Origin: Amoebophrya sp. A120
Lineage: Eukaryota; Protista; Dinoflagellata
Length of the DNA: 64,000 nucleotides
Direction: 5' to 3'
NCBI GenBank assembly: GCA_905178155.1
Contig: CAJINV010000011.1
Location: 2,163,503-2,227,502, forward strand
Shown here: piece after piece, positions 5,101 through 55,257 of the stretch
Layout: each line of letters starts with the position of its first letter
Numbering within the stretch: the stretch's first letter is position 1
The notes under the pieces: generated by a model
What the model was told of the DNA's origin: nothing
What the model saw: only the letters and a program-made list of their open reading frames with translations
Database searches by the model: none
Program-made: the position numbers and the translations under genes

Positions 5101-8100
5101 CAGCGGTTTCTGTGGCACCAAAACCTGTGCGAGGAGCGGCGGTTGCTGAATTTGGACGACTTGGGCAAAACCTACACGGTGCAAATGAAGGGGAAGCCGC
5201 AGATCAGCGGGGGAAGCAGGTATTTGGCGGATAAATTGGTGACGAAGGACCTCTACATCCCCCCCGGCGGCAGTGGGCAGCAGGGCTACTCCTGGCGGCT
5301 CGAGGCCGCGCAAAAGGCGGAAAACAAGGAGTGCACCTTTCAACCCAAAATTTCACAACGGTACGATAAAAGTATTCCGTGCAGTTTATTGATGTTGCGT
5401 GATCCGATACACTTATGGTACTTCTTTTCGACAGCTTCTCTCTGCATGAGTATATGAAAATGAAGCAGTAGTTGTAGTAGAGTGCGCCTGCCGCGCCCGC
5501 ACCGGAGAAAATAATCTTATCCGCTACAATTATCTTCTTCGATCCGACATTGTCAGCAGAAAAACCCGAACTATATGACTCACAGGTCCCGGTCTGTGGA
5601 GCGTGATTGGCGGATTCTGTATGAGGACGCTGCGAAGAGACGGGAGCGGAATAAGGAGCGGGAAAAACAGCAGGGCATGGACCAGCTGCAGGGGGCGACG
5701 TTTCACCCGAGAATATCCGAGTTTGCGAAGTCGCGCTCGGTATGCATTGCAAATATGTCTGGGTCTGGAAACTTGTGATGCTGGGCTGGGAACAGACTGA
5801 ATGCTCTGTAATGCACAGCCGAGCATGAGAAATAATTTGCGCGGCTTAGTGTTGCCTTTTTCGAATGATAAGCTGCGCTTTGCATGACAAGTAAAAGAGT
5901 CTCTTCTTGGACACGCATCACAAACTCGTCAGTCATGCCAGACAAGCATGACAAACCTGGCAATCTTCCAGACCCAGACACATTTGCATTTGATACTCGG
6001 GGGTGATCAACTCCTCTGGGGCGCTGGACGACTACCTGGCGCACCTGCAGTATCCCAAGCAAAAACGTCCCCGCCCCATAGTCAAGTTGGGAATCTAGCA
6101 ACACAAATCTCCAAGTTTTGGGAGCTGTGCATGACAAGTTTCCCTCTACTGCAGTGTCGTGCTGGTTGGCAAGGGAAGCCGCATGAGACAGCCACTCCTT
6201 CATCCTGTTTACAGCATTACAAATTCTAAAACGCGATTGGTAATACCTCGCATGCCGCTGCGCATTACAAATGTTCCTGTCATTGCACATTTGCATGACA
6301 ACTCTGGGGTGGGGACGTTTTTACTCAGGATATGCAGAAGAAGGACGAGAGGCTGCTGCTGACAAGACAAAAGTACGTGGACCGAATGGAACAAGTGCAG
6401 CGGGAGCTGTGTCCCTTCAAGCCAAATCTGATGCACGCCGCGGGGCACGTACCTAAGGTGGAGTCCGCGTCCTTGGACACCTTTAAACTGTACAACGAAC
6501 TGCGGCACGCCAGGGATGCAGAGGTGCAGGACAGAATTGGGGAGGAAAAAAACTACGCACGGGAACAGGCCCGGCTGGCCAGGAGCAGGAGTCGTACTTA
6601 CTCTGAATTAGCTTGATGCAGCTGTTCTTGCTGGTTTTTTGGTTGTAGTCACTAGCGATAGGATTTTAAAGCGCGAGATTTGATTTCCACATTCGACGAG
6701 ATAACAGACTCAGGAGACACGATCATGATTATCAATTTAAGACGAATGATCTGGGAAAGAAATCGATCAAACTTCCCGCAGCTGACGCCGCCAATTCGTC
6801 CGATGGTGGGAACAACAATACGGCGTCGAGGAGTCGATCGCAGTCCCAGCCGCCGTCCCAACCTCGCTCGCGCTCGCCCACAACGACGAACACCGGGGCT
6901 CCAAAAATGCTCTCCGAGAAAAAGAAGGATAATCAGCTGCAAAAATGTCTGGGTCTGGAAGATTGCCAGGTTTGTCATGCATATTTTGAATGACCCATGA
7001 TGTCTGTGATGCATGCCGTAGCATCACAGATTTTTAGAGGACTTTGTGATGCCTCTACCGCATGAGAAATGCCCTCTCCACGTAGCACACACTGGAGTCC
7101 TTTTGCTGGTCATGCAATACAAATTTTTTTAGAATCCAGAGACAGCATTACAAGTTTATAATCTTCCAGACCCAGACACTTTTACATTTGATAAAGGAGA
7201 TCTTGATGCAGAAGTTCGCCCACGACCAGGCTATCGACATTCCGAGCAAAACCGCGAAAGCCCACCCGAAACACACGCCGCTGACCAAGTGGGAACCGAG
7301 CCGGTGGAGGCCGATGAGCGGATCAAAAGGTGGTTCGAAGTCCCGTAGTTCCCCGGCGAGGGGCAGTCGCTCCGCTTCCCCGGACAATCTTCCGCGCGCA
7401 CGACGTTCCCTCACTGCGGTTAAGAAGCCGGAAGCGACGACGAAACGGGAGCCGTCGCACAAGCACGGATCCGTGTTGTTCAACCACGTCCCGATCAACT
7501 TCGACCCGACGCGGCGGTCCGTGCGGTCCGACGCACATCTATCTTCGAGCACCGGAAATGATACAAGTAGTGTCGAACAGGGAGCGGTGAGCAAACTGAT
7601 CCAGAATTTCTCGCGCGAAAACAAGCTTTTGTCATCAAACGCGGTGGAGAACTTCTCGTCGTCGGATAGAAGTCGCAGCAACAGTCCGAGTCCTGTTCCC
7701 GCACGACCTCCGTCTCGGAAAACAGCCCCGAATCTTCGCGAGACGAACAGCGGCTTGGCTTCCACTGCCGCGGGAACGAACTTTGGAAATTCCATGAATC
7801 AGACGGATTCCGGCGCTTCTGCCTCGCCGGTCATGTACCACCGGGGGGTTGCCATCCCGACCGCGACGTTTGTGCCGCGGAAAACGGCACCGATTGAGGA
7901 GGAAACACCAAAGAAGAGCCGCGTGACCAATCTGTACTATGCGGAGCCGGGAAGTGGTGATGAGGCCTTGAATGCGTTTTACAAAGGCGCTTCTTCTACA
8001 CAAGCATTACAGATGAAAACGAACAACAACCCCAGCGCCGGTGTTCCAAAGTTACCCTTGAACAGTACCGGCGCGAGTCGGCAGTGGGCGCAGGCGAGAC

Positions 8101-8543
8101 GGGAGAAAGAAGACGTGTGGGAGGAGCTCCTTGGCGCGAGCGAGTACAGTAACAGTGAAGATGTGATCTCGGACGTGTCGTCGGAAAAGCAGCAAGCCAT
8201 AAAACCTTCTACTTCTCTCCAGTTTAACAAGAAGAACAGCAATCACCAGGCTCGCGACGACGCGGAACAAGAGCGTCGATTGCAACCAAAGATTCTCTAT
8301 CAGCCGCGCAACCCGCAGGAGAAACACGAGTTGCAATCTGCGCAAGCGGCGGTGAGCTATGCGAAAGCGGTGGAGAATCTGGAGCGCATGACGAAACACA
8401 TCTCGGCACGCAACCAGTTTTTGGAAGCGTCTTTAGAAGCTACCGAGGTAGCGGAGCTTGATAGGAAGTTCGGCAGAAATAACAACTACGCGGGCGGCAG
8501 TACTACTAGCGGCTCAGTGGGTCCACGGTGGGACACCTCGTGA
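2163..8543 (+). CDS. Large multi-exon Ser-rich protein with about 8 (E)CTFxP(K/R)(I/L) repeats; several GT-AG introns plus 3 introners
   Basis: ORFs at 2133, 4226, 4759, 5575, 6332 and 7188 appear to be exons of one gene; introner junctions are in frame. Motifs DFTFQPK, NCSFSPRL, NCTFTPKI, ECTFQPDL, QPTFKPRV, ECTFQPKI, GATFHPRI, LCPFKPNL. Not all canonical intron boundaries were fixed. Confidence 0.7.
2880..3023 (+). repeat. Coding minisatellite, 8 x 18 bp (TCCAGCCGCAAAGAGCAG) encoding SSR(K/T/A)EQ
   Basis: Directly visible tandem array, 144 bp. Confidence 0.95.
5741..5995. mobile_element. Introner, TIR family A
   Basis: TAT..ATGTCTGGGTCTGGAA ... TTCCAGACCCAGACAC..GATA; DR CTCGG/CTCGG; removal gives KSRS-GVINSS. 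Confidence 0.93.
6051..6332. mobile_element. Introner, TIR family B
   Basis: TATCCCAAGCAAAAACGTCCCC ... GGGGACGTTTTTACTCAGGATA; DR TGCAG; removal gives AHLQ-KKDER. Confidence 0.93.
6930..7193. mobile_element. Introner, TIR family A
   Basis: Family A TIRs, left end TAATC variant; DR AAGGA; removal gives SEKKK-EILMQK. Confidence 0.9.
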
Positions 8544-15700: not shown

Positions 15701-18167
15701 CAGTCGAGAAATAAAGCAGCCGTCAGGAGGTGACGTGGAAATGAATCTTCGTGCAGCTTCTAGCAGTTCAACATCTGTGAACAATAATTTTTACACCGGA
15801 CTGCCCTCGCTGTCGCTTCCCAATGCTAATGGAAGTGGTGCAGGTGCGAGAGTTCTTCCCGGGCAGCTGCTGGCACCGCTAAGTGGCGGGTCGGTAGCCT
15901 CGTCCTCCTCCAAGCCGCCCCTCGCCCCGCCAAACACAGCCGATCGAATGCCCTCCTCCGCTCTGGACGAAGTGTTGCACGAGCGGCCGCGGCGGATGTC
16001 CTCACTGCAACCAGTGGTCGCCGGCAACAACACGTCCGGCGCCTCCAGCAGCAGTGCGCCACTGGTAGCCGCGCGGTCGGCCTCCTACTCGCCCACGAGC
16101 CGGCGGAACCGGACGGACGCGGACACGAACAAGGAGGGCACCGCCTTTGACGCCCACGCGTTCCAACGAGGCTCCTCCCCGCCGCGACGGGCGCACGGCG
16201 AGCAGAACCAGGACGACGGGGTGCCCAATCAGCAGCCCACGACGGTCAACGAAAGCACGGACTTACCGCGTTCCGCGCACCTGCAGCGGACCAACATCGA
16301 CCCCAACGACCCGAAGTATAAGGAAGCGTTCTTCGCCGGCGCTGTGTCAACCGGGGGCTGGGTGCCCGTCATCTACGAGGGCGCAGCGGCAAAGCTGCAG
16401 GGGGTACGGATTTGTATGTTCATTTCAACATTGTTATTTTAACCGACTGCTTAAGCGACCAATTTGAATTTCAATTTGGTGGAGTGAGATGAAGTTGTGT
16501 CCTGTTTTGCTACCATAAATAAGGAGGCTGCAGTATCTATTCTTTCTTCATCTTCCGCAAAAATCAACCTTCAAACTAACTGCAGGCTCCCGAGCAGAAG
16601 CAGATCCAGGGCCCCATCGTCGTTCGTCGACCTGGGTCTCGTGCCCTTCCGACCGAAGAGGAGGCAGGAGAGGGAGCGCAGAACAAACTGTTACCAAGCA
16701 GTGGGATTATCAAGACGGAAACAGCTACCTCCTCAACCGCGAATAACAGGGACAACAAGCGCGTGCGATTTTCCGAAATCTCCGACATTCGCGAGTTGGA
16801 CAGCCACGAACTTCCAGACTTTTCCATCGAGGGCGAGCCCCTGGTACTTGTGCACAATAACAGCAACGGTTGTCGTGACACCAACTTTTCGAACCTTTCC
16901 GCGATCCCGCACCGGCGGTCTTCGGCCGCTCCGGATCAACATGCAAATCCAACAGCGTACGGAAACTGCAACCCGGTACCTGGCCTACCGGTCGGGACGT
17001 ACTGGAAACAGAAGGAGGGTTATCGTAAGGAAAAATCCCCCCTCCCCATATCAAAAGGAAGTTTCTGATGCTGGATTTGCGTACACAAATCAGATCTGTC
17101 TTGCAGAAAGTGCTTGGCGGCCGCATTTTCTAAGCCTGTTTGGATATGCAGAAGGCTAGCAATTAGGCATGACAAACAGGTTTGCAGTAGTCAAAAGCGC
17201 ATGACAGACTGTCTGCGGAATGCGCCACATTGCTCCCATTACCGTATAGGCAAGACAGAGGGTATTTGTGGCCACAAATCAGCATCACAAATTTCCTTTT
17301 CGATATGGGGAGGTGGGATTTTTACTTTTGATAAGGGCAGAGACACCATCCACCGGTTTGTCGGGTCCAACGTCGGCGCGTCGGAGGACATCAACGGAAC
17401 GTACCCGGATAACGGGGACGTCTACCGGGACCGGATTTTCAACCCGAATTATCTCCCCCTGCCCTTCCGCGCGAGCTCGAAGAACGCGAGCACAAACTTC
17501 GCGCTAGTATCCGCCGGGCGGAAGATCAAGATACCCCGCGGCGCGGTGCGCGACCGGCTCTCCACGCAGATCCGACACGACCACCGGGAGAAGGTGCTGA
17601 AGAGCCGCCGAAATCGGCTGGACTCGGGCAGCGACAGCGAGCCTGCACAACAAGAACATCCGATGGACAGCAACAACCGGCGGCCGCGCATGAGTGACGT
17701 GCCCTGGATCCGCACGCCCCCGCATGATAAGGCCTACACCTGGGAGGAGGGCGACTGGCTCCAGACGCCGGAGGGAAAGAAGCCACCGGAAAAACCGGCT
17801 GACCAGGCGAAGTGGCTCGACAAACCGCCCAGGGCGGCGAGAAGGTACTTATGCTATGCAATTAATTGAATCGTCTTCGTCTTTTGTCGGCATCCATGAG
17901 GGTATGATTTCGATTTGCAACTTCATCGAGAGGAGATTCTGGTCGATTTACTTTCGTTTGCACTGTGTACTAAAATCCTTCCTGCGCGTACCACAGGCAC
18001 CTCGCGGAGGCAGACGAGCTCGATTTTGAGTACGAGTACTTCGTCACACTAGCGTACACGAAGCCGGGCGATCCACAGCCCGTGCCGCACGCGTCGGTTC
18101 TGGCGGATAGCTTCCAGAGCTGTATCGACGTGTCGTCGTCCCATGTGCACCATCAGCAGTCTTTTGC

Positions 18168-18198
<31 letters not shown>

Positions 18199-21100
18199 GC
18201 GCAAAACCAATCGGAGCGGCCGCCCCCGTTCGAAATGAATAACCAGCAGATTGTTCCCACGCCGCCAAGTATGGCGCCCTCGGACCCGAGAAACAACGCG
18301 ATGATTATGTCAGCGTACATATCCTGAGTAAAAACGTACCCACACCAGAGTCAGGATGGGGATTTTGCAACACAAACCTAGGAGTTTTTAGAGTCACGCA
18401 TGACAAATTTCAGTTCGTACTGTAGTGCAGATTAGCGTGGACAGCCGCATTACAAATCCATCTGCTTATCCTGTTTACAGCATTGCAAATTTTGGAACAC
18501 GATGGGAAATGCCTACCATGTGTATGCGCATCACAAATGTTCCTGTCATTGGAAATCAGCATTGCAACTCTGGGGTGGGGACGTTTTTACACAGGATAGT
18601 ACAGCGACCGGTCCGCCTCCGCTGCGGTCCTCAGCGGTAAGATCAGTCCGGTACGGAGTCTGGCGGACCGGGAGCGCGACGAAGCCGAGAAGGAGCAAAA
18701 TAACAGTCAACATCAAAACGCGAGTCAGGACCAGCAACAGCAAGATGAAAATCAGCAGTCCTCTAGAGGTACAGATCTCCACGACCAAAGCAGCAACATG
18801 CAGCAACGGAGTAGGAACGAGGACGAAAGCGCGGCTTTTCATTCGATCGTGGAAGACCGTTCTTCGTTCCTCCGGATCAGCGAGGGGGAGCACAGGCCGA
18901 AAATTTCTCCGCCGACCTTTGGCATCGCAGGCGTGACCGCCGCGGAACTCCGGGCAAAGGAAGTGTCCTTTGGTGGGGACCATCAGGGGGCCTTCGACCC
19001 GCACCCGGGGAACAATTTGAATGGGGTATTGGTTTAGTTTCTAAGTTGTACTTATCTCCTACGATGTGTTTCAGTAGATTCGAAGAATGGTCAATATTAC
19101 GAGTAGACGCACGAGGAAGAAATAGTGGCTGCATTTGTTCAGTAAGTCGCTGAAATAATAAATCTATCCCTGGAATCCCGTTTTTATTGTGTAATGGATT
19201 CTGTGTCGAATTCGTCATCTATCATGATGCTACTTCAAATCTTCAACAAATACAAAACAGCACACGCCACAGTTTGGCGCGCAGCATCCGACGCCGCAAT
19301 TTGGCGGTCTGGTTCCCCGCGGTGGCCTGTTTGACCGCGAACACGAGCATTCGCCCGGCCCCAGCTTCGTACCGTCCCCGCGTGGGGGCCGGCTGCCCCA
19401 CGTGACCTCGCCCGTGTTCGTGCCCAGTCCAAAGGGAGCGGACGGGGCGCGGGGACGGGACGCGGAAAATCGGGTAAGAAAGTTTTTTTACTTGTAGCGT
19501 GCTTATTGGGTTTAGGTTTTCTTGTTGTTACGTGATAAAGTGTAACAAGGTGAAACAACCTTCGCAATGTCAAAAAATCGCAAAAATATCTATCATGCCC
19601 TACAGGTTTTCACTCCTGAAGATCCGCGTGGTAGTTTCCCAGCACATCAGGCGCTGGATCCGGAAGCGCAGCGACGCCTTGACGCGATCCAGGATATTCT
19701 AGTGTCCAAGGGGCACGACGCAGAAGCCGCGCTGCCGCTGGCCAAGGAGCTGTTATCCGTGCTGAGATCGGAGGAAGAGGTCACGATTGAGAACCTGCAG
19801 GAAGCGGAGAGACGACTGCAGGAAGCGGCAGAGTACGATTCAAATAGATACAACTTTACAATGAGCTTACTGTTTGTGTAATGGATACTGTCTTCCTCTT
19901 CCGAGTTGTATGCCGAACAAAAAGAAAAATATGATCCAAAAAAAAAAGAAAGTCTATGAAGCACCAACATCCCGGTTGTACCACCTACAGCATTTTCACA
20001 GGCTTCGCAAGATCGCGGATTTTGCCTATCCGGTGATGACTTTGTCTGAGGAGCGAGACTTCCAAAAGCGCACGGAATCCAGGATTCGGGCCGCTGACTT
20101 GAATTACATGACCGAGGATCAGGTCGACATGCTGTTGTGGCAAATGTGCGTGCAGGAGGAAGTGCGCCGGTTGGACCGCCTCGGCGCGCAGCCCGGCGGG
20201 CCGGAGGGCGTGGCCGCAATGGCGGAGTACAATTAGATACACGCTGGCTAAAAGTTTTTCTTGATTTCGATATTTCTAAGATTTCACATCTGTTGCTTTC
20301 TCAGCGGCCAGTTTTGTCATACTTATGCAGGTGCTGCTTCTTGCTACATGAATTCCATGGCAAAATAAATGATTTTCAAACCACCAAACTCTGACGTGAC
20401 TCTCACAGCGCCCTGGACGAAATGATCTCCATGTCGTTCGACCACTTCCAGGAGGAGGACGGTGATAGTAATTCGTTGCAGCTCGGAAAGCAAAGGCCGG
20501 CGAAGACCCGCGAGCAGATGCTGAAAGAGGCCCAGAGTCTGCAGCAGTCCGCTGTTAACATCGAGAGGGAGACCGAGTTTTGGCGCAAGGGCAAGGCAGA
20601 CACGTCGAAGCACCGACTGCCGCCGTCGATTCTGGAGGACATGCGGAGGGTGGTGGCGGAAAACCTGGACACGCGGAATGTGGTATGCTATTTAAAAGCG
20701 TTCCCACCCCATAGTTGTCATGCAGATTTGCATCGACAGAAAAATCTGTAATGCACATCCGCAAGAGAGGAATTTGTAGTCGCGTTTTGGGATTTGTAAT
20801 GCTGTAAACAGGATGAGCAGGCGTCTTTGTGATGCGGCTGTCCTTACTAAACAGCACTACACTACAGATGGAAACTTGGCATGCAGAACTCCCAAAACTT
20901 GGAGATTTGTGTTGCAGATTTACCAACTTGACTACGGGGTGGGGATGTTTTTCCTCAGGATATGTGGACATGGAGGCGCTGGTCGGGGCGGAGTCCGCGG
21001 AGGGGGAATTTTCCCTGCACCTGCTCGAGCAGTTTTGCCTCGACCACCAGCAGCTCACTGCGGAGATGGACCACGCGCAAAAGGTGCGGGAGGAGGGAAT

Positions 21101-26743: not shown

Positions 26744-27526
26744 GTTTTGATTTACACAGATATAGATTGTTGGGTCGTGAGAAAAATAGAACTCCACAAC
26801 AAACCAGGTTGTAGCTCTTGTCATTGATTCGTATCAAAAAGGGATAAGCGGCCAACAACTACTGCTCTTTGGAAAATGTAATGTAGAGCACTATTTCATT
26901 TTGATGAATTCTTGAGTGTGCTCATTTTGTCGAGAAAAAACGGACGTTGTATTCGAAGATGCACGAGGAATAAATCTAGCGAAAATGAATACGATGATCA
27001 CGACCATATGTTGCCCGAAGAACTTTTCAAAGTAGAACCTTCACGCGAGCAAGTGTATAGTTGCACTTCTTTGATGCTGTAAGGTAAACGTCGCAAAAAT
27101 TGGAATGATCGCTAATATACTGCATTCGCATGCCTATAATTTCGTTAGTAGACACGTCGTAGTCCTCCTCGTCCTAGGGATGCTGCTGTTTTTCTCTTTT
27201 CCTGTCGGATGGAGGACAAATGCAGATAAAACTGGTGACACCTCTTTGATCATGTTCCTGCTTGTCATCGTGCGGAAGTTCTAGACTGCTAATTGCGGGG
27301 TCGTGGCTGCGAATCGATGGGGGTAGCATGAGAGTTCGGACGAGTGAAAACTCGCAAAGCGAGGGATACTACGCATACAAATCCTTGCGCAGCGTCTCAC
27401 TTTTCGGGAGACAGAGAGAGGGTTCCTTCTTCGATATCACAACATGCATCTGAGCACAAAGGATCGCTGAGCCGTCGCTGTGCTTGAGGGCAACAGCTAT
27501 TTGTTAGTGACGATGAGAAGATCTTC

Positions 27527-37584: not shown

Positions 37585-40500
37585 ATGTCGTATTTTTTCC
37601 CGCCCCCACCTGTGCCCCCCTACGCAGCAGCAGCTGCTATGGCAGCAGCCGCGCATGAACAGCACCAACAATCAATTCTAGCTTCCACTCATTTCTGGAA
37701 TAAGTCTAAAGATAGTAGTACAGGAGCAACCATTTCTAGCGAGACTTTAACTTCGGGTAGTTCTTCGCAATTTCATTCCGCACTAAAAGGGAACCCTTTT
37801 AACTTCCCATACAACAAGAATAGTAATCCGCTCTCCCCATGGACAACAACAGCCTCTCCGCACAAAGGCAAAGGCAAACAGAAATCGTTTCCAGGTTCGG
37901 GAAAAAAGTCTTCTAAAGAGGCGAGCTGTAATATTGTTGAACATCCATTCGACAAAAACAACTTTGGCTCCAGCTCTTACAACAATTTCGATTTCCCGCC
38001 GCCTCCTTTCGGAGGCACGTTATCATCTAGCGCCGGCGCAGCACGACAAGAGCTGCAGCAACACCAGTCCTATAATCAGTATAATCACGAAAGGAGCCTA
38101 CAATTTGTCAATAGTACCCAGCAGCTCTCTTCTTTCGACTCAGTTCGTAGTAGTGGGAGAAGTAGTAAAAGAAGCGCCGGCGCTGCACCCTCCGAAGTGG
38201 AGTTGGATAACAAGGGTTTACTACACGGGCGGAACTACCCGGGAACAAACAAGCGGAAAAACAAAATCAAAAATAAAGAGAAGCGAACGGGGAAAATAAA
38301 TAAGACTTCAAGCATTTTTCCGACGCTGGAGTCTACCTTTCTCGGACCACACGGAGGGAAGCAGCAGGAGCAGTTTGGTGGTGGAAAAGGAAATAGTAAA
38401 GGAAGTCACAGTACAGCAAATCCACTTTTGCCAGGAAATATTATTAACATAGACGCCAGCATCAATACTAGTAGCACCTACAACTTCGACGGCTGTGCAC
38501 AGCACAGTGCTGCAGCTGCTGCTGCACTACAGCACAGTACAGCAAGCAGACCTGGTGGGCATCTTCAGCCGGCGCATACGTCGTCGATCGTGGCGGCTGG
38601 TGTACAACTTCCGGATAGGTCTTCGGTGACGAACGTGAATCCGTATCAAAACATAGCCATTAGTGGAACAAGACCAGCAACGACATCAGCGCTTGTTCAA
38701 GATATTAGCGGCGGACCACCAGGTCATCTAGAAGGAGATTTTGCAGCTGGTGCGTCACAGCAGGACCACAATATTTTTACCACCGATACTGAGTATAATA
38801 TTGAAAATTGTGGTAACAACATCAACGATATCACGACGCCTCTGCACAACTCCGACGACGAAAATCAAAATCTCGAGGAATTATACCAAGACGAGCAGGA
38901 GCTGCACCGAAGTACTTCTAGCAGCCACGAAGGAGTAGAAGTAGACCACAAGGAGGACGACGTCGTGGTCATCGAGGAGACATCAAATAACTTGTGCGAG
39001 GACGAGGAAGAGGACTACGAGTACCACCACCATCACCATCAGGAAGAAGAAGAGCTGAAAATATTAAACTATAGTGCGAACAACATCAAAATCGAGAACA
39101 ACACCAGCGCGACCCGGAGAAGAACCACCGCCGGCACGTCTGCTTCCCAGCTGCGAGCAGACGACCAGGATACTATATTTAACTACGACCAGGAAGTGGA
39201 AGAACATCAAAGCGGAGAAGAAAACGCACCCATCCTGGGGGAAAACTTGATCCCCCAGTTCCGCGATCGAATCTCCTCCTCTTCGTCCGTTGAGGAAAAG
39301 ACCATCGTTTTCCCTAGCCCCTTCAGTCCCGCGCTGCCACCGGAAGCTTTGTGGAATCATCTCGACACCAGGATGGCCGACCCCACGGACCACTTCCCCG
39401 CGCGGGCCTTCCGCTGCGTCATATGAGAGTGCACAACACTCCTTCCCCCTTATTTGTATGGCATGAACAGCAACACAAGTGCTGGCAGAGATGCAGGCTC
39501 TGCATGAGAAATTCACCACTGACTCTAGCGCTGTTTCGGCTTCGGGAGCCTGTCATGCAAGCAGTGCCAAAATGCAATGGGTGGACTTGGCATTTTGCAT
39601 GACAAATAAGGAGGAGGGGGAGTTGTGCACTCTCATACGTCATCGAGTTTTTTGAGAAGGTGTGGGACGCAGACAAGGAAAAAGAGGGCGAGTGCGAGTT
39701 TTCGGTTGCGGTTGACATGATTAACAAGTACATTTTGACGGAGTGCGTCGACCTGCCATCCGAGTGGCAACTGCAGATCGAGAAGGTGCTGACGCTGCTG
39801 TTGCTTTCCCTGGACGTTTTGGACACGTTTCTGTTTGAGCGCATGGACGAGCAGGAACGCGGGCCGCCGGAGCTATCAACTGCAAAAGTGTCTGGGTCTG
39901 GAAGAGTGTAAACTTGTCATGCAGATTCGCCATGACAGCTGAGGTCTGGAATGCGGGACCTAGCATGACAGACTCTGTGAGGTCTCTGCCATGCCTATCT
40001 TGCATGAGAAACTTCCTCCCAACTTGGTCAAAAGTGGACAGCTTTTGGCAGTCATGCAACACAGATTTTTACATGCTTCAGATTTACCATGACAAGAAGT
40101 TGCCACCTTCCAGACCCAGACATTTTTACACTTGATAGGAGCTCACCCCCGTACGACTCGCGATGCTCAGGTAGATTTGGACGTTTTTGCATATCCTGAG
40201 TAAAAACGTACCCACACCAGAGTCAGGATGGGGATTTTGCAACACAAACCTAGGAGTTTTGTGAGTCACGCATGACAAGTTGCACTCTGCAGTGTAGTGC
40301 AGGTTAGCAAGTGCAGCCGCGTCACAGATTCATCTGCTCATCCTGTTCACAGCATCACAAATTCCAAAACGCGATTGGAAATGGTCCTCATGCGGATGCA
40401 CATTACAAGTCTTCCTGTCTTTGCAAATCCGCATGACAACTCTGGTGTGGATTTTTGTTGTGAAAAAATTCTGTTCATCTTCCAGGTCGGACCATATGAT

Positions 40501-43309
40501 CTTTTCTAAAACTGGTAACGCTAACGCATGATAGTGCTGCGATTGTTCTTCACTGGTGATTAAGATGAAGTCAGAATTCTACTGGTTGTCTACTTGTATT
40601 ACGAGAAGGTGATAATGACATAGATGATAACTGCCAACAGGTTTGCTGCGTTTTGGGTTGCCGCCGAGGAAAAAGGCGACGGGCAAGCGCACATCCGCGC
40701 TGCGCAGACGATTTGCAAGATTGCCGCCCTGTTTTTCGATGAGGACGTGGATTTCGTGAAGACCGTAACGGCCCGGTTTCAGCCGGGAGCGTTCGCCGAG
40801 TTCCAGCGCCGCCACGAGATGCAGAACTTGCCCCCGTTACTGCCCCCCCTCTCCACGAACGCCCCAGCCAATAACACGCCCGGCGGACAGCAGGGCGGGC
40901 AACATCAACCCCCCACGCCCGCGGGCGCGCAGACGATGGCGCACGCGCAACAGCAGCTGCAGCAGGTGGGTGCAGCAGCAGTTTCGATGCAGCTCCAACA
41001 ACAACAGCAGCAGCAGAATATGGATAAGGACCGGTCCCCCGTCACGCCCGGCACCACGACGAACGTGGCTGCGGGGAACATGATCGTTCCCCCTGGGATG
41101 ACACCCGGAGGCACGATGAACAGCAAGGGCGGACTCCCGGGTAACGCCGGCGCGAAGTTTCTGATGCCGATGCAGCCGGGGATGCCGATGCCACCGCAGG
41201 TGGTGGGTGGGTTCACGCCCACGGGCCCGCAAAGTGGGAAGAACTTGTTGCACTTTCCCGGACAGCAGCACCCGCCGGGGGTTGGCGCTCCCGGAGGACC
41301 TCCTGGAGGTTTCCCGCAGTACGGGCAGTTGCCGCCCCCCTACGGCACGCCGAACGCCGGAACGGGACCTCCCGGGTTTCCCCACCCGGGCACGCCGGGC
41401 GGATTCCCGGGCAACCCGGGGGGCCCCACGCCGCCAGGCGGATTGCCACCGCAGCTGCAGGTACAGCCACCACCCGGGACAAAGGGGCCCGCGCTGAAGC
41501 CCGGTGCTATGCCGCCCATGTTCCCGCCGGGGCTGGTGCCGCCCCCCGGAGTGCCGATGCCGGCCAACTACAGTCCGTTCAAGGGGAATCACTTGCAGCT
41601 GATGCAGCTGCAAAGCCCGCGGGGCGCCGGAACCATGCCGCCGGTATCTGGGCCGGGGGGACCACAGCAACCACAACTTCCTCCAGGGGTTTTAGTACAA
41701 CAACCTCCTCCAGGAGGACCCGGTGGACCACCGCAGCTTTTACCCATCGGAGCGGCAGGAGTTGCACTGGACCCCGCAGCTGCACAACAGATGGCCACCA
41801 CGACATCCTCCCCGAATGCAGGTGGAGCACCCGCAGCTTCGGCTGCACCAGATTCGCTGCCGTTGCCTGTCACTGAAAACAACGAGGATGAGATGGACGT
41901 TGACGATGATGACAAAATGGGCGTCGATAGTATTATTGCGAATAAAAAGTCTTCGTCAAAACGGCGGTCGAGCAAGCGCTCGTCCAAGCGGGACCGCAGC
42001 AAAAGCAGTTCTTCCTCCGAGCTGTCCGATGAAGCTTCCGGTGCCGCGCGGAAGAAGAATATTAAACAGCGCCGTGGGTCGTCCTCATCGGCTAGTAAGA
42101 ACAATTCCAGTGATAATAACGAGGAGGAAAACGTCGAAAATGAAGATAAAAAGAGCGGCAAAAAATCAACAAACATTGAAACCAGAAGTCGGCGCAGAAG
42201 GAGCAAAGAGAAAAAGACGACTCGAAAAAGCAAGAGCAGTAAACGAAGCAAGAGTAAAAACACCTCCCGAAGCGGGTCGAATAAATCGAAGAGCAGCAAC
42301 AGGTCGAAAAGCAGCAAAAGTAACAGCAGCAAGAGCGCCAGAGACCGCTCCAAGTCATCGAGTAGGAGCTCGCGAAGTCGAAGATCCAGCTCGCGCGGCT
42401 CTTCTAAGTCCTCGCGGTCCAAGTCTAAAAATTCCGACCGCTCTTCTGACAGCGATGAGGAGTCCAGTGAGGTGCAGGGACCGCTGTTGGAAACCCCGCT
42501 GGAACTGAAGCAAATGGCCAGCACGTTGCATTCCGGAACGAGCGCGGACGGGTTGCAGAGTGCTGGGCAGGGTGCCGGCGACCGAAACAACACCACGGAT
42601 CATCCGTTGGATGAAAACCTTTCCAAATCTTTGCAAAAAGCGAAGAACAAGCAGAAGCAGAAGAAGGACATGCTGACGGGGATTAAGCAATTAAACGTTT
42701 CCAACACGTTGTCCGACCTGCGGGACCGCCGGGCGGAGGAGCAGGTTCGCATCGTGAAGACCTACGCCAGTGAAGGCTGCCAGACCGAGCAGGCGCCGGA
42801 CTTGTATGATCGGAAGAACCTCGTGAAGATCATGACGGCCCGCGCGGACCGGTTCGTGTCGTCCCGGACAAAAGAGGAAATTGACGCCGACGAGGAAAAA
42901 GGAGTCTCTATCCCAAGTAAAAACGTCCCGACCCCATAGTTGTAATGCAAATCTGCACGCTGGAAATGCAAATGTTTCTCATGCGGAGCCCCATGAGAGG
43001 CGTTTTCTACCCTAGTGCTGATTTGAGATTTGTCATGCTCGAATCAGAATGACAAACTGGATCTGTGATGCTGCTGTACGAGCTAAACACGACTAAATTG
43101 CGAGCCCAAATTTGTCATGCGCAACAGCCAAAGCTTAGGGATTTGTGTAGCAGATTTCCCATCTTGACTCCGGGGTGCTAGGGACGTTTTTACACAGGAT
43201 AGTCTCTCACTGTCCCGACATTATGCCCGACTTCTCGTTTGATCAAGCCTCATCTCAGCCGGAGGTGACAAACAAAGCGAGCGGACTCTCCACGATCATG
43301 GAGGAGTGA
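37585..43309 (+). CDS. Hypothetical protein with low-complexity N-terminus, small helical core, Pro/Gly/Gln-rich region and Ser/Lys/Arg-rich region; 3 exonic introners plus GT-AG intron 40171-40640
   Basis: ORFs at 37501, 39660 and 40624 join in frame (RCV-IEFF, PPE-LTPV, AMLR-FAAFW, KGVS-HCPD...IMEE*). Confidence 0.7.
39422..39637. mobile_element. Introner, TIR family I (single copy here)
   Basis: TATGAGAGTGCACAAC ... GTTGTGCACTCTCATA; DR CGTCA; frame restored. Confidence 0.93.
39874..40137. mobile_element. Introner, TIR family A
   Basis: DR GGAGC; removal gives PPE-LTPVRL. Confidence 0.93.
40192..40460. mobile_element. Family B element nested in a canonical GT-AG intron, right TIR lost (end approximate)
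   Basis: First 69 nt identical to the copy at 18320; similarity stops after GACAACTCTGG near 40450; no GGATA end and no DR seen. Confidence 0.85.
42909..43201. mobile_element. Introner, TIR family B
   Basis: DR GTCTC; removal gives KGVS-HCPD. Confidence 0.93.
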
Positions 43310-45442: not shown

Positions 45443-48400
45443 ATGCGCAAACTCTCAAAGCGGTGCATCTTCTTGTCGGCGGCCATAAGTGCCGGCGGCA
45501 TGAGCATGATGCTGCACCAAGCCAGTGCGAGCACGGCGGCCGCGTTTGCAGCACCGGCTGCGGTGGCCATTTCCGAAAGTGGTCGTGGCTCCAGTGGTCA
45601 AGATCCTCGCGCCGGCCAGGGAACTACTGCGGAAGCAGGAGCGCATAATAATTCCCTGGTAGTTCCAGACACCGAATTCCAACTGGTTTCGTCACAAGAT
45701 CTGAAAGACTTATCTTCCGACAAGAAGGCACCGGGTGGGTTTCAGTTGATTTCCCCTCGAAAAACCAGAACGGTCAAGCTTCCCGGCAAGGAAGGACAGC
45801 AGCAGCAACCTCTACACGGAGGTGGGAAGAGTAATAAGCACAAAGGTTCTCGTGGTGAGAAAATCAATCTCGGCCCATCAGACCCAACCGAGGTACACCC
45901 GCAAGCGGAAGCGCTCTTGCGGATCTTAAACCAGAGTAGCAAAGTTGAAGAGGAACAACACCAAAGGCAGCGGTTTCTCGAGGATCAGATTTTGCCGAAA
46001 CTGCAGCAACGACTGCGGCCGATTCTGGAGCAAGATTCATCGCCTTCTTCCACGCCGAAGAAAGTTGGAAGTTTGGATAGCCTAGACGATGAGAGTGATG
46101 GAACAAAAATCGAGGAGATGATAATGTTGAAGTGGCAGAAAAACAAAAACGTCGGCAAGAAGATACTTGACATCACGAAGAGCCCTCCTACAACTACATC
46201 AACTTCCCACTACTACACCGCCGAGTTGAAAAAGCTCGGTGGCTTTGCACTGGGCCTCGCCTCGGACCGCGCGTTCGATTTGCAGATCTCGCTCCATTTC
46301 GATTTCGCGCCAGACACGCCGGAAATGTCGCGACAAGTGTCGAACAAGAAATCGTTCCTGTTCCCGAACGGCGCGCCGCGGATCAAGCTGTTACTGGCTC
46401 TCGAGAACAACTCTCCAGGCTATCGGATGAGTGCTGAGGATAAAGAAGAGCTCGCGCACTGGCGCACGCACGTCTTGAGTCACGCTGCCCGAACGCTGTT
46501 CGGCTCAGCAGGTTTTGAAGATACGGAGGTTGCGCGGCAGAAGAAGACGAACCAACATTTACCACTATTTGGGGCATGCCCCTCGGAGAACATCGGTAGC
46601 TCGGCGTACGGGGTGCTGGAGCAGCTGCACCAGGAAGGGATTTTGCCCTCCAACATGACTATGCATTGCAAATATGTCTGGGTCTGGAAGGTTGGAACTT
46701 GTGATGCTAACTTTGGACTCTAAAAAAATCTGTATTGCATGACCAGCAAGAGCAGGCGCCCGGTTTGTGTTACGCGGGGAGGGTATTTGTCATGCGGGAT
46801 AGGCATCAGGAAGGCCTCTAAAAATATGTGATGCTAGATCGTGCATTACAGACATCCTGAGTCATGCAAAATGGGCACGACAAACTAACCTGGCAACCTT
46901 CCAGACCCAGACACTTTTGCCCTCCAACATGACCACCGATTTGCTACCCGCAGTTAGCGCAGCAAGCTGCATTGGCAGTAGTTTTTCGCGTTCTTCGCCT
47001 GGCAAGAAAAGCTGCGCGTCAGACACAGCAGGTGAAGATGACCAGGAACTACAGAGCAAGGCCTTTCTGTACATTCGTTACGGCGATTCCGTTCGCATTC
47101 GTCTGACCGTGGCAGATTACCGACGGGCTGCTGAGACGGATTTCTTGAAGAATACATTGGCTAAGTTTAGCTTGAAAGGGGAAGCGGTGCTGTTTCGGAT
47201 CGTGCGACAGGTACACCTAACATAGAAACAAACCATGCAGAAGATAAAGATTCTTCCTTTGCAAAGTCGTGATATCAAGTATTCGTTCATTCTTGCTAGT
47301 AAAGGGTCGAGTTGGATGAAAGAGGGATTGTGTTCTAGTACTTCGCAATCATCGCAATTAAATCCCAATTCCCAGTTGAAATTCTGGGCCGAAGCCAGCG
47401 GCAAAGATTGGCTGCGCGCGGCGGACCACCTGGCGCTCGGACTGGCTCTTGCGTATTTGAAAGACGAAAGAACGGATTTTGGCTCCGCAACCCTGCAGGG
47501 ATTTTTCGAATTCTACACGACGATTCTTTCTTCGCACAGCGGCCGCCGCTGCTGGCCCCGACGTGGAGTCGTTGCTGTTCCGGCGTCCTCCTCTGGGGCA
47601 AGTCGAGAAGATCCTACGGTGGGAAGTACAACAGGAGAGAAGAATTTTTCCAGCCAGATAACACCACCAGCAGCACGTCAGGATTCCAGTGAAGATTGGA
47701 TTATGCTGGACGGTAAGGAGGACGTTGAGGGTCATGCCGCTGCCGAGTCCGCTGGTCATGTCCGCCTGGTAGCAGCTCCTGCGGATCACGGCGTATCCAG
47801 CTCTTTTGGTGGAAAAAGTTCCGCCTACTGTCCGTCTCCGTCCGTTAGTTCATCCCCCTACGTGTTCAACAACAAGAACCCCCACGAAATTACCCTGCCC
47901 AGGCACCAGCCGAGGACGCCAACGCAGCAACTTGTCAAGCCGTTTCTGGTGATGGCGAAAAGCATGCACGACATCGTGCCACCGACCCTTGTTGCCTCGG
48001 TGTTTAGTACTATGACCACTCCTGCGGCAGCTGCCACTGCTTGTTCAACAACATCTTCTGCCGGTCTAGTATCCTACGAAGGAAGTTGTACACGACATCA
48101 AGAACATCCGCAACAGACGAGTGTGACCACGAATGTCCTTGAAGACATTGTGGCAGCAGACTCGGCCTGCACGCCTGTGCCGGACATGTGTCGTGGAAAT
48201 AAGAAAGACGATGAAGAAGAAGAGCTCATCCTGTACTGCAAAACACAGGACAGCGAGTTTTACGTGAAGCCGAGTACCGCGAAGCAGAAAAAGTCGTCGA
48301 AGGGAAACAAAAAGATAGCACCAAACAAGCAGTCTTGCACCTCCTCGCCCGAGTTAAGTCCCGCCAGTTCTACTTCCTATTTCCCGCCAAGCAAGACAAC

Positions 48401-49782
48401 TTTGGCGCCGACTGGCGGTATTAGCGGACAGAAAAAGAACAAATTCCTCGGACGAGAGGAAGAAGAGACCACTAGCGGCTCTTGCTGCAAGCACCGAAAT
48501 GGCAGCCAACACCAGCCTACGCGGGCCAGCTCCCCGCCCGCGAGCGCGGCGCTGCTTTGCAACAACATCTGCCGTGGGGTCTTGCCTTGGGCGACGAGTG
48601 GTTCTGCGGGTCGCGACGGTCGTGGTGCCACGGATCATGCGGGCGGGAGACGCACGAAGGTCGAGACATCAAAATCCGCTATGATAGGCAGTCCCATCCT
48701 GGCAGGGAGTGTGAAGACAAGGGAAGAAGGACAAGCAAGCAACCAGGAGGTGAAAAAAGGTGACTCAGTCCTCTCAGGTCGTGCAGCGGTTCCCTTGCAG
48801 GAGACAATGCGATGGGAGCACGTTGGAGAACACCGGCCGCAGCAACCGCAGCGGCAGCAATGTGAGGATGACGAGTGCGATGGTTGGGAACAACTTGAAG
48901 TAGACGCAGACATGATGCAGTCATCTTCTACCCCCGCAAAGCAAGACCAAGACGATGAAAATGAAGCAGCACCAGCGCCAGCAGTCCCTGATGAAGACAA
49001 AAACAGGAAGTCAACATCTGCTGCGATGAAACTGCTTGAGCGCCTATTGTAAGGAAAAATCCCCCCTCCCCATACCTCCAAAGCGGGATACGTATGAAAA
49101 TTTGTGATGCTGATTCGAGGCCACAAATCGTCTCTGTATTGCCAGAAGGCAAATCCCAAGACCTGGCCGCGTTCTGCAGGCAATTGGTGATGCTGTAGGA
49201 CCTACGGAAAGAGGATGTGCCTGCCTTGCTAGGCGCCTACACCAAAACGCCCCTACTCCGGCTTTGCATCTGTTTGCAGTCCTCTACTGCAAGACGAATC
49301 CGATTTGGGTACACAAGTCTCGCATCAGAGATTTCCATTTCGATGTGGGGAGGGGGGATTTTTCCTTTTGATAGTCCCTGCAACCCGCGATGCAGATCCA
49401 ACTCCTCGATGACTTCGAGTACGCCGCCCGCTTGCTGTATGGGAGTGTCAGAATTGAAATCGTCAAAGTTGAAACGATTTGTCATGCATAAAATGCAGCC
49501 CACAAAGTGCTTGTCTTGCAGAGTAGGCAAGTGAGGCAGATTGTAAGCCTGTTGAGGGGTAGCATCTGAGCTGCTAAAATAGCATGACAGAAGGCGTCTT
49601 CCTTACCCAAACAGCATGACAAACTGGATTTCGGCTCTACCCAAATTTGTCATGCGCCACTTAGAAACTGGGTTGCAACTGGTATCCATTTTATGCATGA
49701 CAAACCATTATTTCAACTTTGACGATTGCGATCCTGACGCTTCCATATGCTGCGAAATCTGACCGCGTCGGAGAAGAAATAG
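45443..49782 (+). CDS. Hypothetical protein, possibly a degenerate TRF4/Cid1-like nucleotidyltransferase; 3 introners plus GT-AG intron starting at 47211
   Basis: LGGFALGLASDRAFDLQ resembles hG[GS]x9-13DhD; FRIVRQ-LKFWA...LALAYLK...LQGFFEFY resembles the poly(A) polymerase central domain. By-eye similarity only; the gene is more certain than the product call. Confidence 0.5.
46660..46928. mobile_element. Introner, TIR family A, right terminus replaced by exon sequence (19-bp DR)
   Basis: TTTTGCCCTCCAACATGAC occurs at 46641-46659 and 46915-46933; removal gives PSNMT-TDLLP. Confidence 0.88.
49045..49373. mobile_element. Introner, TIR family C
   Basis: DR GCGCC/GTCCC (3 of 5 match); removal gives LLER-LQPAMQ. 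Confidence 0.88.
49438..49747. mobile_element. Introner, TIR family D
   Basis: DR TGCTG; removal gives ARLL-RNLTASEKK*. Confidence 0.93.
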
Positions 49783-53415: not shown

Positions 53416-53695
53416 TAGAAAGATTGATAAAGGGGCGGGAGCGAATAATTGGAGCGGTTGTTTGCGTCGAGATAAGTATAAATATCACATTCGTTTTGAG
53501 AGAATATTTTCTTCTTCACCGCAAAGTGGCACGCATCGACTGACATCAAAGGGGAAAGGAAGTTTCGTAATCCCCTAGAGCGAGGTGGAATTTTTTTTTT
53601 TAAGCTGTAGCGATTCTTCGGTCGCCCTCCTCGCGGGAACACTTCTTACCTTTCGACGAAGTTGTAGTTTACGCGCTCAGCACGTAGAAACTACA

Positions 53696-54688
53696 ATGGC
53701 GGACACGACGCTAGTGACCCCTGCTCCAACCGTCGTCGCCATCGTTGGTGCCTCCGGCGGTGTCGGCTGCAAGGTGGTGGAGTGTGCGCTCGCGCAGGGC
53801 TTTGTTGTGAAGGTGCTGGTGCGCAACGCCGAGAAACTGGCGAAGAAGATCGGGCAGGAGAACGTCGACAAGCTCGACAAAATCGTCCTGGGCAGTGTGG
53901 ACGACGAGGCCGCGCTCAAGCAGCTGCTCGAAAACGCGTCCGTGGTGGTCTCCTGCCTCGGCATATCAAATGTAAAAATGTCTGGGTCTGGAAGGTTGCA
54001 ACTTGTGATGCTGTCTTTGAAAGGTAAAAAAATCTGTATTGCATGACCAGCAAGAGGAGTTCAGTTTGTGCTACGCGGAGTGCGCGTTTCTCATGCGGAA
54101 TACGCATCAGAAGGCCCTTTAAAAGTCTGTGATGCTCGGCCAGGCATTACAGGCATCATGGGTTATGCAAAATTTGCATGACAAACCTGGCAATCTTCCA
54201 GACCCAGACATTTTTACATTTGATACGGCACCCCCCCGAAAGAAAAGCCGATCGTGGCGGCCGGTACGGCGAAGATCCTGAAGCAGATGGAAGAATGTAG
54301 CGTGAAAGACCTGGTGATGATTTCGTCTATTTGCGTCGGAGATTCGCTGCCGCAGGGGAAGAAGGTCGCGTGCTGCTTCGCGAACTGCATCCGACCACTG
54401 ATTCTGTCCAAGGTGTTCGCAGACCTCGAAATCGCGGAGAAAATGTGCTTCGAACAGCAGGGAAAACTCTCCATCGTCATCGTGCGGCCGCCGCACTTGA
54501 CGGACAAACCGGGCACCGGGGGTTACCAGTGGACGGACGCGGCAGATTTTAACCCGGGGGCGCCGGCGGCGATTTCGCGGAGCGACGTGGCGCTGGCGAT
54601 GGTGGATCTGTGCAGGGGGGATAGCAAGTTTAAGGAGCTCGCGGGCACGGCGCCGAGCCTGTTTCCGGCGAAGAAGATGAAGGCGTGA
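53696..54688 (+). CDS. NAD(P)-binding Rossmann-fold protein, flavin reductase/biliverdin reductase B-like atypical SDR; 1 introner
   Basis: VAIVGASGGVG, V.VLVRN..KL, VVSCLG, VMISS, IVRPPHLTD.P.TG and ISRSDVA are typical motifs of this family. Confidence 0.85.
53964..54225. mobile_element. Introner, TIR family A
   Basis: Perfect 30-bp TIR TATCAAATGTAAAAATGTCTGGGTCTGGAA; DR CGGCA; removal gives SCLG-TPPKEKP. Confidence 0.96.
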
Positions 54689-54754
54689 GATTTTTTAATA
54701 GCAGGAGTTCTAGCTACTATCTTCTTCATTTTTTCATCAATTTTTGGCATCAAT

Positions 54755-55252: not shown

Positions 55253-55257
55253 GCACG

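What the first reader, a model, noticed from the sequence alone, without database searches (positions are those of the whole stretch)
5741..54225. 36 MITE-like introners in at least 9 TIR families obey one rule: 5-bp DR + TAT...ATA, non-GT-AG, frame-restoring
Seen: 35 exonic elements, each restoring the reading frame when the element plus one DR copy is removed. TIR sequences differ completely between families A-I, yet termini are almost always TAT...ATA and the DR is 5 bp with no evident consensus. Sliding the boundary within the DR gives GT-AG for none and GC-AG for one (31133). Established: inverted-repeat/direct-repeat introners as non-canonical introns were reported in Amoebophrya (Farhat et al. 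2021, BMC Biology), so the class is not new, but to my knowledge the excision machinery and mobiliser are unresolved. Inference: one enzyme system inserts all families, and a second splicing pathway guided by the TIR stem works alongside the normal spliceosome.
Basis: partly seen in the sequence, partly recalled or inferred. Interest (0 to 1): 0.92.

Follow-up and report, generated by a model that had tools for sequence, protein, structure and literature searches.

The report
Transposon introns cut by a ruler
A marine parasite's genes are interrupted by dozens of small transposon copies that lack normal intron ends yet are missing from the assembled transcripts checked; this intron class is already published, but here it appears to be cut at one fixed position around a predicted hairpin, which would give a direct test of its unknown splicing machinery.

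Summary
Observation confirmed: 36 elements in 9 TIR groups, 35 exonic, 5-bp repeat, mostly TAT…ATA, none slidable to GT-AG. The window is Amoebophrya sp. A120, so these are the published introners: Farhat 2021 reports the TAT start and shows 5-bp repeats; Gozashti 2025 labels one family 'Ginger, 5-bp TSD, TA/TA termini'. Transcript-like contigs of one sample lack the elements exactly (one join shown, five by exact length), in both orientations. In a second assembly, 184 of 223 elements have an exact 5-bp repeat. Two features were not found in the papers searched. (1) Five imperfect repeats fit only one fixed cut, N-TAT…ATA-NNNN (1 nt before, 4 nt after the stem), with no G+1 or AG enrichment (141 junctions). 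(2) All groups share a ~10-bp motif spaced 31-33 bp apart, so the TIR groups are not wholly unrelated. Likely: one integrase-type transposase inserts them, and a stem-measured splicing mode, perhaps a relaxed spliceosome that still reads U+2/A+3, removes them. No transposase was found; the enzyme is untested. The scan noted similar hairpin introns in three other genomes.

The parts
5741..5995 (.). Introner, group A; DR CTCGG exact
6051..6332 (.). Introner, group B; DR TGCAG exact
6930..7193 (.). Introner, group A; DR AAGGA exact; left tip TAA
12738..13000 (.). Introner, group A; DR GCCCA/ACCCA; mRNA base 1 inferred to come from the left copy
   Evidence: X1 contig piece stops at 13002
17021..17333 (.). 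Introner, group C; DR AGGGT/AGGGC; mRNA base 5 comes from the right copy
   Evidence: X1 and X3 contigs join 17015|17334 with no mismatch; X5 DNA contigs hold both DR copies
18320..18598 (.). Introner, group B; DR GTACA exact
20684..20962 (.). Introner, group B, opposite orientation to 18320 and 24211; DR TGTGG exact
   Evidence: X1 and X3 pieces begin at 20962; orientation
23663..23906 (.). Introner, group A; DR AGTTC exact
   Evidence: (1100-nt length match)
24211..24490 (.). Introner, group B; DR AGATC exact
24873..25138 (.). Introner, group A; DR TCACA exact; splits a motif that is unbroken in the A25 orthologue
25327..25590 (.). Introner, group A, opposite orientation to 24873; DR GCACG exact; splits a motif that is unbroken in A25
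25639..25944 (.). Introner, group D; DR GAGAA exact
28712..28980 (.). Introner, group A; DR CACAA exact; left tip TAC
29511..29817 (.). Introner, group B; DR AAGTG/AAGCG; annotated protein uses the left copy at base 4; no end-to-end stem in the predicted fold
29890..30141 (.). Introner, group A; DR CTTTG exact; tips TAC…ATC
30180..30501 (.). Introner, group C; DR GTGCT exact
30570..30845 (.). Introner, group A (degenerate); DR ACGCG exact
31133..31427 (.). Introner, group E; DR GGCGA exact; the only one slidable to GC-AG
31808..32118 (.). Introner, group C; DR TCAGA exact
32181..32442 (.). Introner, group A; DR CGGGG exact; left tip TAC
32671..32981 (.). Introner, group D; DR CAGCT/GAGCT; annotated protein and paralogue match the left copy at base 1
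33997..34240 (.). Introner, group F; DR GTACA exact
34414..34675 (.). Introner, group A; DR TAACG/CAACG (synonymous)
34721..34997 (.). Introner, group B; DR CGTGT/CGCGT (synonymous); right tip ACG
35111..35498 (.). Introner, group E; DR TCGGA exact
35678..35889 (.). Introner, group G; DR TTGGT exact
36061..36221 (.). Introner, group I (161 bp); DR TCAAG exact
36376..36694 (.). Introner, group B; DR GCTCA/GCGGA; annotated protein and paralogue match the left copy at bases 3-4; right tip ATC
39422..39637 (.). Introner, group H; DR CGTCA exact
39874..40137 (.). Introner, group A; DR GGAGC exact
40192..40450 (.). Truncated group B element (right tip lost; end approximate) inside a predicted GT-AG intron that starts at 40171
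42909..43201 (.). Introner, group B; DR GTCTC exact
46660..46928 (.). Introner, group A; right 9 nt replaced by a copy of the left flank, giving a 14-bp repeat at unchanged length
49045..49373 (.). Introner, group C; DR GCGCC/GTCCC (non-synonymous; register untested)
49438..49747 (.). Introner, group D; DR TGCTG exact
53964..54225 (.). Introner, group A; DR CGGCA exact; splits Pfam PF13460 (profile 1-69 before, 76-181 after)
27517..36771 (+). Host gene holding 16 introners; product equals annotated A120 protein P0001 (1565 aa); ends approximate
22758..26743 (+). Host gene with 5 introners and 2 GT-AG introns; P0003 (767 aa), orthologue P0004 in A25; ends approximate

Best explanation
These are the published Amoebophrya A120 introners, short non-coding transposon copies with TA tips and a 5-bp target duplication, likely inserted by one integrase-type transposase and likely removed from the RNA at a fixed distance from their predicted terminal hairpin (1 nt before, 4 nt after), probably by a relaxed spliceosome. 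DNA level (inferred): an integrase-related DDE transposase acting in trans makes a 5-bp staggered cut. It would recognise what all groups share (TA tip, A-tract at 11-15, decamers spaced about three helical turns apart) rather than the group-specific TIR body. RNA level (removal shown for some, register inferred): the ends pair, and the intron is N-TAT…ATA-NNNN, so exactly one copy's worth of the duplication stays in the mRNA whatever its sequence and whichever way the element faces. This puts TA(T/C) at +2..+4, as in the genome's GTA(T/C) donors. I therefore favour a spliceosome that still reads U+2/A+3 but takes the hairpin, not G+1 or AG, as its measure. Rough odds: real introns 0.97; one integrase-type mobiliser 0.6; fixed 1+4 register 0.7; spliceosomal chemistry 0.5.
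For: Removal: X1 and X3 contigs join 17015|17334 with no mismatch and also join the canonical intron 16404-16585. The 1100 nt between two pieces equal the span minus five elements plus DR and one GT-AG intron. X5 DNA contigs keep the elements. The A25 orthologue is ungapped across three of five junctions; the other two lie in unalignable regions. PF13460 resumes across 53964. Register (k = left-copy bases kept): k<=4 at 17021 and k>=1 at 12738; k>=1 at 32671, k>=4 at 29511 and 36376 in P0001, with paralogue P0002 matching the left copy at 32671 and 36376. In the second assembly k=1 gives a stop at L024:301 and k=0 a stop at L024:4759. Sequence-blind: G at +1 in 37 of 141 (flank 29%), AG at the end in 9 of 141 (flank 7%); orientation 27:34; opposite-facing B and A copies both removed. 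Hairpin: z -11.6 and -4.5 for two elements; 33 of 34 minimum-energy folds pair end to end. Shared signal: decamer 139 inside vs 7 outside, shuffles mean 4, max 11; spacing 31-33 bp 38 times vs null 4.6, max 13, in 7 of 8 groups; present in 308 of 311 elements of the second assembly, with peaks at 31-33, 93 and 124. Mobiliser class: A120 family 38 has TIRs, Copia/Gypsy-like ORFs and '5-bp TSD, TA/TA Termini'; GingerRoot has TA…TA tips. Donor match: 4 of 4 RNA- or annotation-backed canonical donors are GTA(C/T). All 18 predominant non-canonical sites of A25 and A120 have T at +2 (Farhat Table S4), though aligner sliding can inflate this.
Against: The register rests on five junctions. Only one sets the upper bound (one RNA sample), and the two that set k>=4 come from annotation, both group B in the same orientation; a mix of registers (4 and 1) is not excluded. 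RNA contigs were seen for 9 of the 17 elements in the one stretch laid; the tables were truncated, and contigs give no retention rate. Element sequence is abundant in X1/X3 contigs, and about 100 X9 RNA reads show a group A tip still attached to another locus's flank, so retention or pre-mRNA exists somewhere. 29511 has no predicted end-to-end stem; tip pairing is weak or absent in about nine others, and 46660 has lost its outer 9 bp. No G+1 or AG bias is hard to square with ordinary spliceosomal 3'-site docking (established knowledge). No transposase was found; Farhat found none in A120 and argued against general transposase mobilisation. One nested B copy has an 8-bp and one A copy a 7-bp repeat. 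Copies within a family are not independent, so the spacing null overstates significance.
Confidence: 0.5

Rival explanations
1. Same elements and ruler, but removal is spliceosome-independent: a structure-specific endonuclease cuts on each side of the stem and an RNA ligase joins the exons, as proposed for euglenid nonconventional introns.
For: No G+1 or AG enrichment in 141 junctions; either orientation removed; the stem would bury a donor; U1 snRNA not detected in A120; euglenid introns have a staggered stem and exit as circles without lariats.
Against: The inferred cut lands exactly where the tip gives U+2/A+3 of the native donor, one of six possible registers. Changes at tip positions 1-2 fall on the 3' end 6 times and the 5' end once in confidently oriented copies (small numbers, not significant). 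U2, U4, U5, U6 and nearly all spliceosomal proteins are present in A120.
Confidence: 0.3
2. There is no single register: the machinery recombines anywhere in the duplication, or alternates between a donor-led (k=4) and an acceptor-led (k=1) cut; the outcome is the same mRNA.
For: Published site counts for A120 family 1 are symmetric (5' NT 892 and 3' AN 864 of 1322); three of my five junctions also fit k=1.
Against: The symmetry is what an aligner sliding towards GT-AG/CT-AC would produce (recalled BLAT behaviour; BLAT was used). k=1 fails at 29511 and 36376 and gives a stop at L024:301.
Confidence: 0.15
3. The elements are excised from DNA in some life stage (IES-like), or spread by an RNA-based, non-transposase route, and the decamer is a chromatin-protein site rather than a transposase site.
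For: TA tips; no transposase in A120 according to Farhat and none found here; the 31-bp phasing fits a chromatin protein as well as a transpososome.
Against: X5 DNA contigs keep the elements, while contigs that lack them also lack canonical introns; uniform 5-bp duplication of unrelated targets and balanced orientation are DNA-transposon hallmarks. Contigs drop rare variants, so stage-specific DNA excision is not formally excluded.
Confidence: 0.05

Closest known systems
Amoebophrya A120 introner elements (Farhat et al. 2021, PMC7789003)
   Same: Same organism (P0001 and P0003 are 100% identical over the query exons); IR starting TAT with an A-tract after seven variable bases; 3-5-nt DRs with a 5-bp example; non-canonical ends; hairpin.
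   Different: Nothing in kind. The text I could read gives variable DR length, IRs '1-5 nt' from the splice sites and no fixed register or internal motif; here the DR is uniformly 5, with an inferred 1+4 register and a phased decamer. The figures were not visible to me.
A120 introner family 38 (Gozashti et al. 2025, PMC12130899)
   Same: TIR DNA element, '5-bp TSD, TA/TA Termini', filed as Ginger in the supplementary table.
   Different: About 810 bp with Copia/Gypsy-like ORFs; the window's elements are 161-388 bp and non-coding. Most other A120 TIR families are 'Unknown' with automated TSD 2-6 (56 of 58 rows read). No sequence comparison was possible.
Ginger1, Ginger2/TDD and GingerRoot integrase-type DNA transposons (PMC2836005, PMC6839031)
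   Same: TIRs; TDD-4/5 make 5-bp TSDs; GingerRoot ends TA…TA.
   Different: Ginger ends TGT and mostly makes 4-bp TSDs; GingerRoot makes 6-bp TSDs; neither combines TA tips with 5 bp; no transposase is at hand here.
Euglenid nonconventional introns (PMC3935182, review PMC11282704)
   Same: Non-canonical ends, terminal stem offset from the cuts with a longer 3' overhang, TSD-like repeats, MITE origin proposed, coexistence with GT-AG introns.
   Different: Stem pairs +4..6 with -8..-6 (CAG/CTG), versus an inferred +2 and -5 (TAT/ATA) here; circles are shown there and untested here; unrelated lineage.
Micromonas/Aureococcus MITE introners and Fritillaria non-canonical introns
   Same: Transposon-derived introns whose removal uses the TSD; Fritillaria is a precedent for an adapted spliceosome.
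   Different: Those keep recognisable splice dinucleotides; here no junction dinucleotide is enriched except T at +2 supplied by the tip.

Membership tests
Amoebophrya A120 introner elements | Located in A120 genes | tested here: met
   100% identity to annotated A120 proteins
Amoebophrya A120 introner elements | IR starting TAT, seven variable bases, A-tract | tested here: met
   (67 ends)
Amoebophrya A120 introner elements | 3-5-nt DR at exon/intron boundaries | tested here: met
   5 nt
Amoebophrya A120 introner elements | Repeated, and absent from mRNA at non-GT-AG ends | tested here: met
   copies up to 95.6% alike in a second assembly; 9 of 17 elements in the laid stretch, one sample
MITE (non-autonomous TIR DNA transposon) | Short, TIR-bounded, fixed-length TSD, multi-copy, either orientation | tested here: met
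MITE (non-autonomous TIR DNA transposon) | Cognate autonomous element or transposase exists | tested here: inconclusive
   none in the window or 380 kb of loci; no whole genome held
Ginger1/Ginger2 | TGT termini | tested here: not met
   tips are TAT vs TGTNR
GingerRoot | TA…TA termini | tested here: met
GingerRoot | 6-bp TSD | tested here: not met
   exact 6-bp repeat 0 of 223
Ginger-like superfamilies | Integrase-related DDE transposase | not testable with these tools
   no autonomous copy retrieved
U2-type spliceosomal intron | GT/GC-AG ends | tested here: not met
   GT-AG 0 of 33, GC-AG 1 of 33; no G+1 or AG enrichment
U2-type spliceosomal intron | Lariat intermediate and snRNP dependence | not testable with these tools
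   needs raw reads of this strain or bench work
Euglenid nonconventional intron | CAG/CTG pairing at +4..6 and -8..-6 | tested here: not met
   stem opens TAT/ATA
Self-splicing or other Rfam RNA | Match to an Rfam family | tested here: not met
   0 matches at gathering score in 5000-32500

The most novel reading that the evidence does not exclude
Most introns of this parasite are removed by a sequence-blind ruler: the cut falls exactly 1 nt before and 4 nt after a transposon-made hairpin, matched to the 5-bp stagger of a single integrase-type transposase that recognises all families through helically phased decamers. Any new insertion, in either orientation, is then a perfect intron at birth, and the splicing enzyme needs neither G+1, AG nor a fixed branch site.
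Probability: 0.45. Interest if true: 0.85.

Novelty: already known. Interest (0 to 1): 0.55.

Why it matters
About two thirds of RNA-supported A120 introns are non-canonical (65%, Farhat Table S4), and how they are spliced and spread is open. A fixed cut position turns 'variable splice sites' into one rule, tells where to look for lariats, circles or cleavage ends, and would let gene finders place these introns. A motif shared by all families gives bait to pull down the mobiliser. If a spliceosome does this without G+1 or AG, it stretches what that machine is thought to need; if another enzyme does, it is a second bulk mRNA-splicing route. The class itself is published, which caps the score.

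Tried and rejected
No whole genome is held, so a genome-wide search for an autonomous element was impossible. No listed holder run was on record as RNA; X1 and X3 count as RNA-like only because they join canonical introns. X9 (2026 raw RNA reads) covered no window exon and says nothing on this locus. RNA contigs were examined for 12550-32540 only. Long TA-tipped, 5-bp-flanked segments (7 listed, 6 distinct) are introners with secondary inserts. The 415-aa ORF in L049 has no Pfam family and only unnamed weak Atlas hits. 103 of 106 long ORFs of the loci were scanned and the other 3: no transposase or integrase. Two TIR patterns found nothing in viral contigs. A homologue search with exon 16595-17014 found nothing. 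P0001, P0003 and P0004 have no Pfam family, and P0002 only a sub-threshold hit. A purine bias at intron +1 in the window (24 of 34) vanished in the second assembly: rejected. Polarising DR mismatches by AT bias (by eye) was uninformative. Published dinucleotide counts were rejected as register evidence because aligners slide within repeats. Off-length repeats did not discriminate ruler from repeat-guided cutting. My automated scans missed the 161-bp element 36061 until it was read by eye, so further degenerate copies may exist; therefore use 33-35 elements. The tip-asymmetry signal (6 vs 1) is too small to count. Pseudogene reading rejected: transcripts, a 4.7-kb ORF and an A25 orthologue.

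Full report
Identity. An exon of the window matches an annotated Amoebophrya sp. A120 protein at 100% (P0001), as does a second (P0003). No whole genome was held. The host genes examined lie on the + strand.

Observation. Inverted-repeat scans, a motif-anchored search and reading by eye give 36 elements of 161-388 bp in 9 TIR groups. 35 are exonic; one is truncated inside a predicted GT-AG intron. The 5-bp repeat is exact in 27 of 35 and has 1-2 mismatches in 8. Both tips are TAT…ATA in 28 of 35. Sliding gives GT-AG in 0 of 33, GC-AG in 1 (31133), AT-AC in 3 and GA-AG in 2; the two not in that call give no GT-AG by eye. Retention stops or shifts the frame in 34 of 34. After removing 16 elements, one gene gives an ORF containing all 1565 residues of P0001.

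Independent test of the rule. They share no exon with the window but hold copies up to 95.6% alike. With tips placed from TIR positions 4-30 only, 184 of 223 elements have an exact 5-bp repeat and 206 have at most one mismatch. Exact repeats number 25 at length 2 and at most 3 at lengths 3, 4 and 6-10; tips are TAT in 213 and ATA in 216. The set is biased to group A (149). Further TAT…ATA families of 109-255 bp appear there. Exceptions include one nested copy with an 8-bp and one copy with a 7-bp repeat.

Are they spliced? Four runs were laid on 12550-32540, which holds 17 elements. X1 and X3 (one sample; RNA is a guess, but they join the canonical intron 16404-16585) join 17015 to 17334 with no mismatch. 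In the gene at 22.8-26.7 kb, both runs leave 1100 nt between two pieces, equal to the span minus five elements plus one repeat each and one GT-AG intron. Pieces stop at the edges of 12738 and 20684, and a contig length fits removal of 18320. So 9 of 17 have support; the other 8 were not in the truncated tables. X5 DNA contigs run into the elements. Against clean removal everywhere: element sequence is plentiful in X1/X3, and about 100 X9 RNA reads show a group A tip attached to another locus. Contigs give no retention rate. The A25 orthologue is ungapped across three junctions, two in near-identical motifs, and a Pfam domain resumes across 53964. Opposite-facing copies of groups A and B are both removed; orientation relative to transcription is 27:34 among 61 assignable copies.

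Where is the cut? Imperfect repeats show which copy each mRNA base comes from. Let k be the number of left-copy bases kept. 17021 gives k<=4 and 12738 gives k>=1. P0001 gives k>=1 at 32671 and k>=4 at 29511 and 36376, and paralogue P0002 agrees with the left copy at 32671 and 36376. The annotation came from transcript alignments. In the second assembly k=1 makes a stop at L024:301 and k=0 at L024:4759 (58 imperfect repeats listed, most uninformative). Only k=4 fits all five window junctions: the intron is N-TAT…ATA-NNNN. This is an inference from few junctions and assumes one register. Under it, +1 is G in 37 of 141 and the end is AG in 9 of 141, both at flank frequency (34 window elements plus 107 of 320 locus elements with confident orientation). 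But the tip supplies TA(T/C) at +2..+4, and the four canonical donors backed by RNA or annotation read GTA(C/T). 33 of 34 predicted folds pair end to end; 29511 does not, and tip pairing is weak in about nine more.

A signal shared by all groups. The motif GCAT(G/C/T)A(C/G)A, usually followed by two purines, occurs 139 times inside elements and 7 times outside (shuffles: mean 4, max 11); two of the seven lie in the element recognised later. Same-direction copies sit 31-33 bp apart 38 times (null 4.6, max 13) in 7 of 8 groups tested, with a 10.5-bp phase, and cluster 40-52 and 70-84 bp from the tips. In the second assembly 308 of 311 elements carry it, with spacing peaks at 31-33, 93 and 124. 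Copies are not independent, so the spread across families is the real evidence. Group B copies whose motifs point almost all one way or all the other are both spliced, so I read the motif as a DNA-level site (transposase or chromatin protein), not an RNA signal. This is inferred.

Mechanism. Shown: structure, 5-bp duplication, removal of some elements from transcripts, orientation independence, shared motif. Inferred: a single integrase-type transposase; a hairpin-measured 1+4 cut; spliceosomal chemistry with relaxed G+1 and AG (0.5 against 0.3 for endonuclease plus ligase). No transposase was found in the window or loci.

Literature, and what I saw. Farhat 2021 (PMC7789003; abstract, passages, sections 11, 16 and 25, supplement legends and table rows) describes the class, the TAT start with A-tract, 3-5-nt DRs with a 5-bp example, IRs 1-5 nt from splice sites, U1 not detected, and no transposase in A120. 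Gozashti 2025 (PMC12130899; passages and 56 of 58 A120 rows of supplementary file 8) describes family 38 with Copia/Gypsy-like ORFs, filed as 'Ginger, 5-bp TSD, TA/TA Termini'. Seen as passages only: PMC9860276, PMC11282704, PMC3935182, PMC2836005, PMC6839031. Roy 2023 was seen only as cited. I found no fixed register or internal decamer in searches or supplement look-ups. However, figures (Farhat Fig. 3, S19-S25), theses and subscription papers were not visible and may hold either. BLAT's sliding behaviour and spliceosome docking rules are recalled. Earlier scan notes report similar hairpin introns in three other genomes (unchecked); nothing by place or sequence.

Verdict. Real and accurately described, but an already known class whose headline rule is mostly in print. 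The value lies in the inferred fixed register and the shared phased motif, which make an open question directly testable. Interest 0.55.

Noticed in passing
L078:900-2756: A 1857-bp GC-rich element with long perfect TIRs, TTA…TAA tips like the A25 introner tips, a 5-bp duplication and no decamer, nested in a group A introner; three of its long ORFs scanned, no significant Pfam match.
   Followed up: partly
L049:476-2934: A group A introner carrying a ~2.2-kb secondary insert flanked by an 8-bp repeat, with a 415-aa ORF of no known family; both introner ends are intact.
   Followed up: partly
L024:3098-3377: A group B element with perfect TIRs but an 8-bp duplication, nested inside a group A introner; L063:2547-2801 has a 7-bp repeat.
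   Followed up: partly
window 46646-46933: The outer 9 nt of the right tip are replaced, length for length, by a copy of the left flank; a natural test of whether the outer stem is needed.
   Followed up: partly
window 22758-26743: The host protein has acidic/histidine motifs recalling a DEDDh exonuclease (label recalled; no Pfam hit), conserved in A25; two introners sit inside these motifs.
   Followed up: partly
window 27517-36771: P0001 is internally duplicated (two similar halves), has an 82%-alike paralogue on another contig and no Pfam family; 16 introners, with exons as short as about 40 nt between them.
   Followed up: partly
L028:132-5771: Introners interrupt the RNA polymerase largest-subunit gene (Pfam RNA_pol_Rpb1 domains), so essential genes tolerate them.
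   Followed up: no
window 52850-53420 and 54740-55260: Two similar non-coding stretches flank the NAD(P)H-binding gene, suggesting a duplicated intergenic or repeat segment (seen by eye).
   Followed up: no
window 30532 and 30535: Two base differences appear in contigs of X1, X3 and X5, probably from the paralogous gene rather than editing.
   Followed up: no
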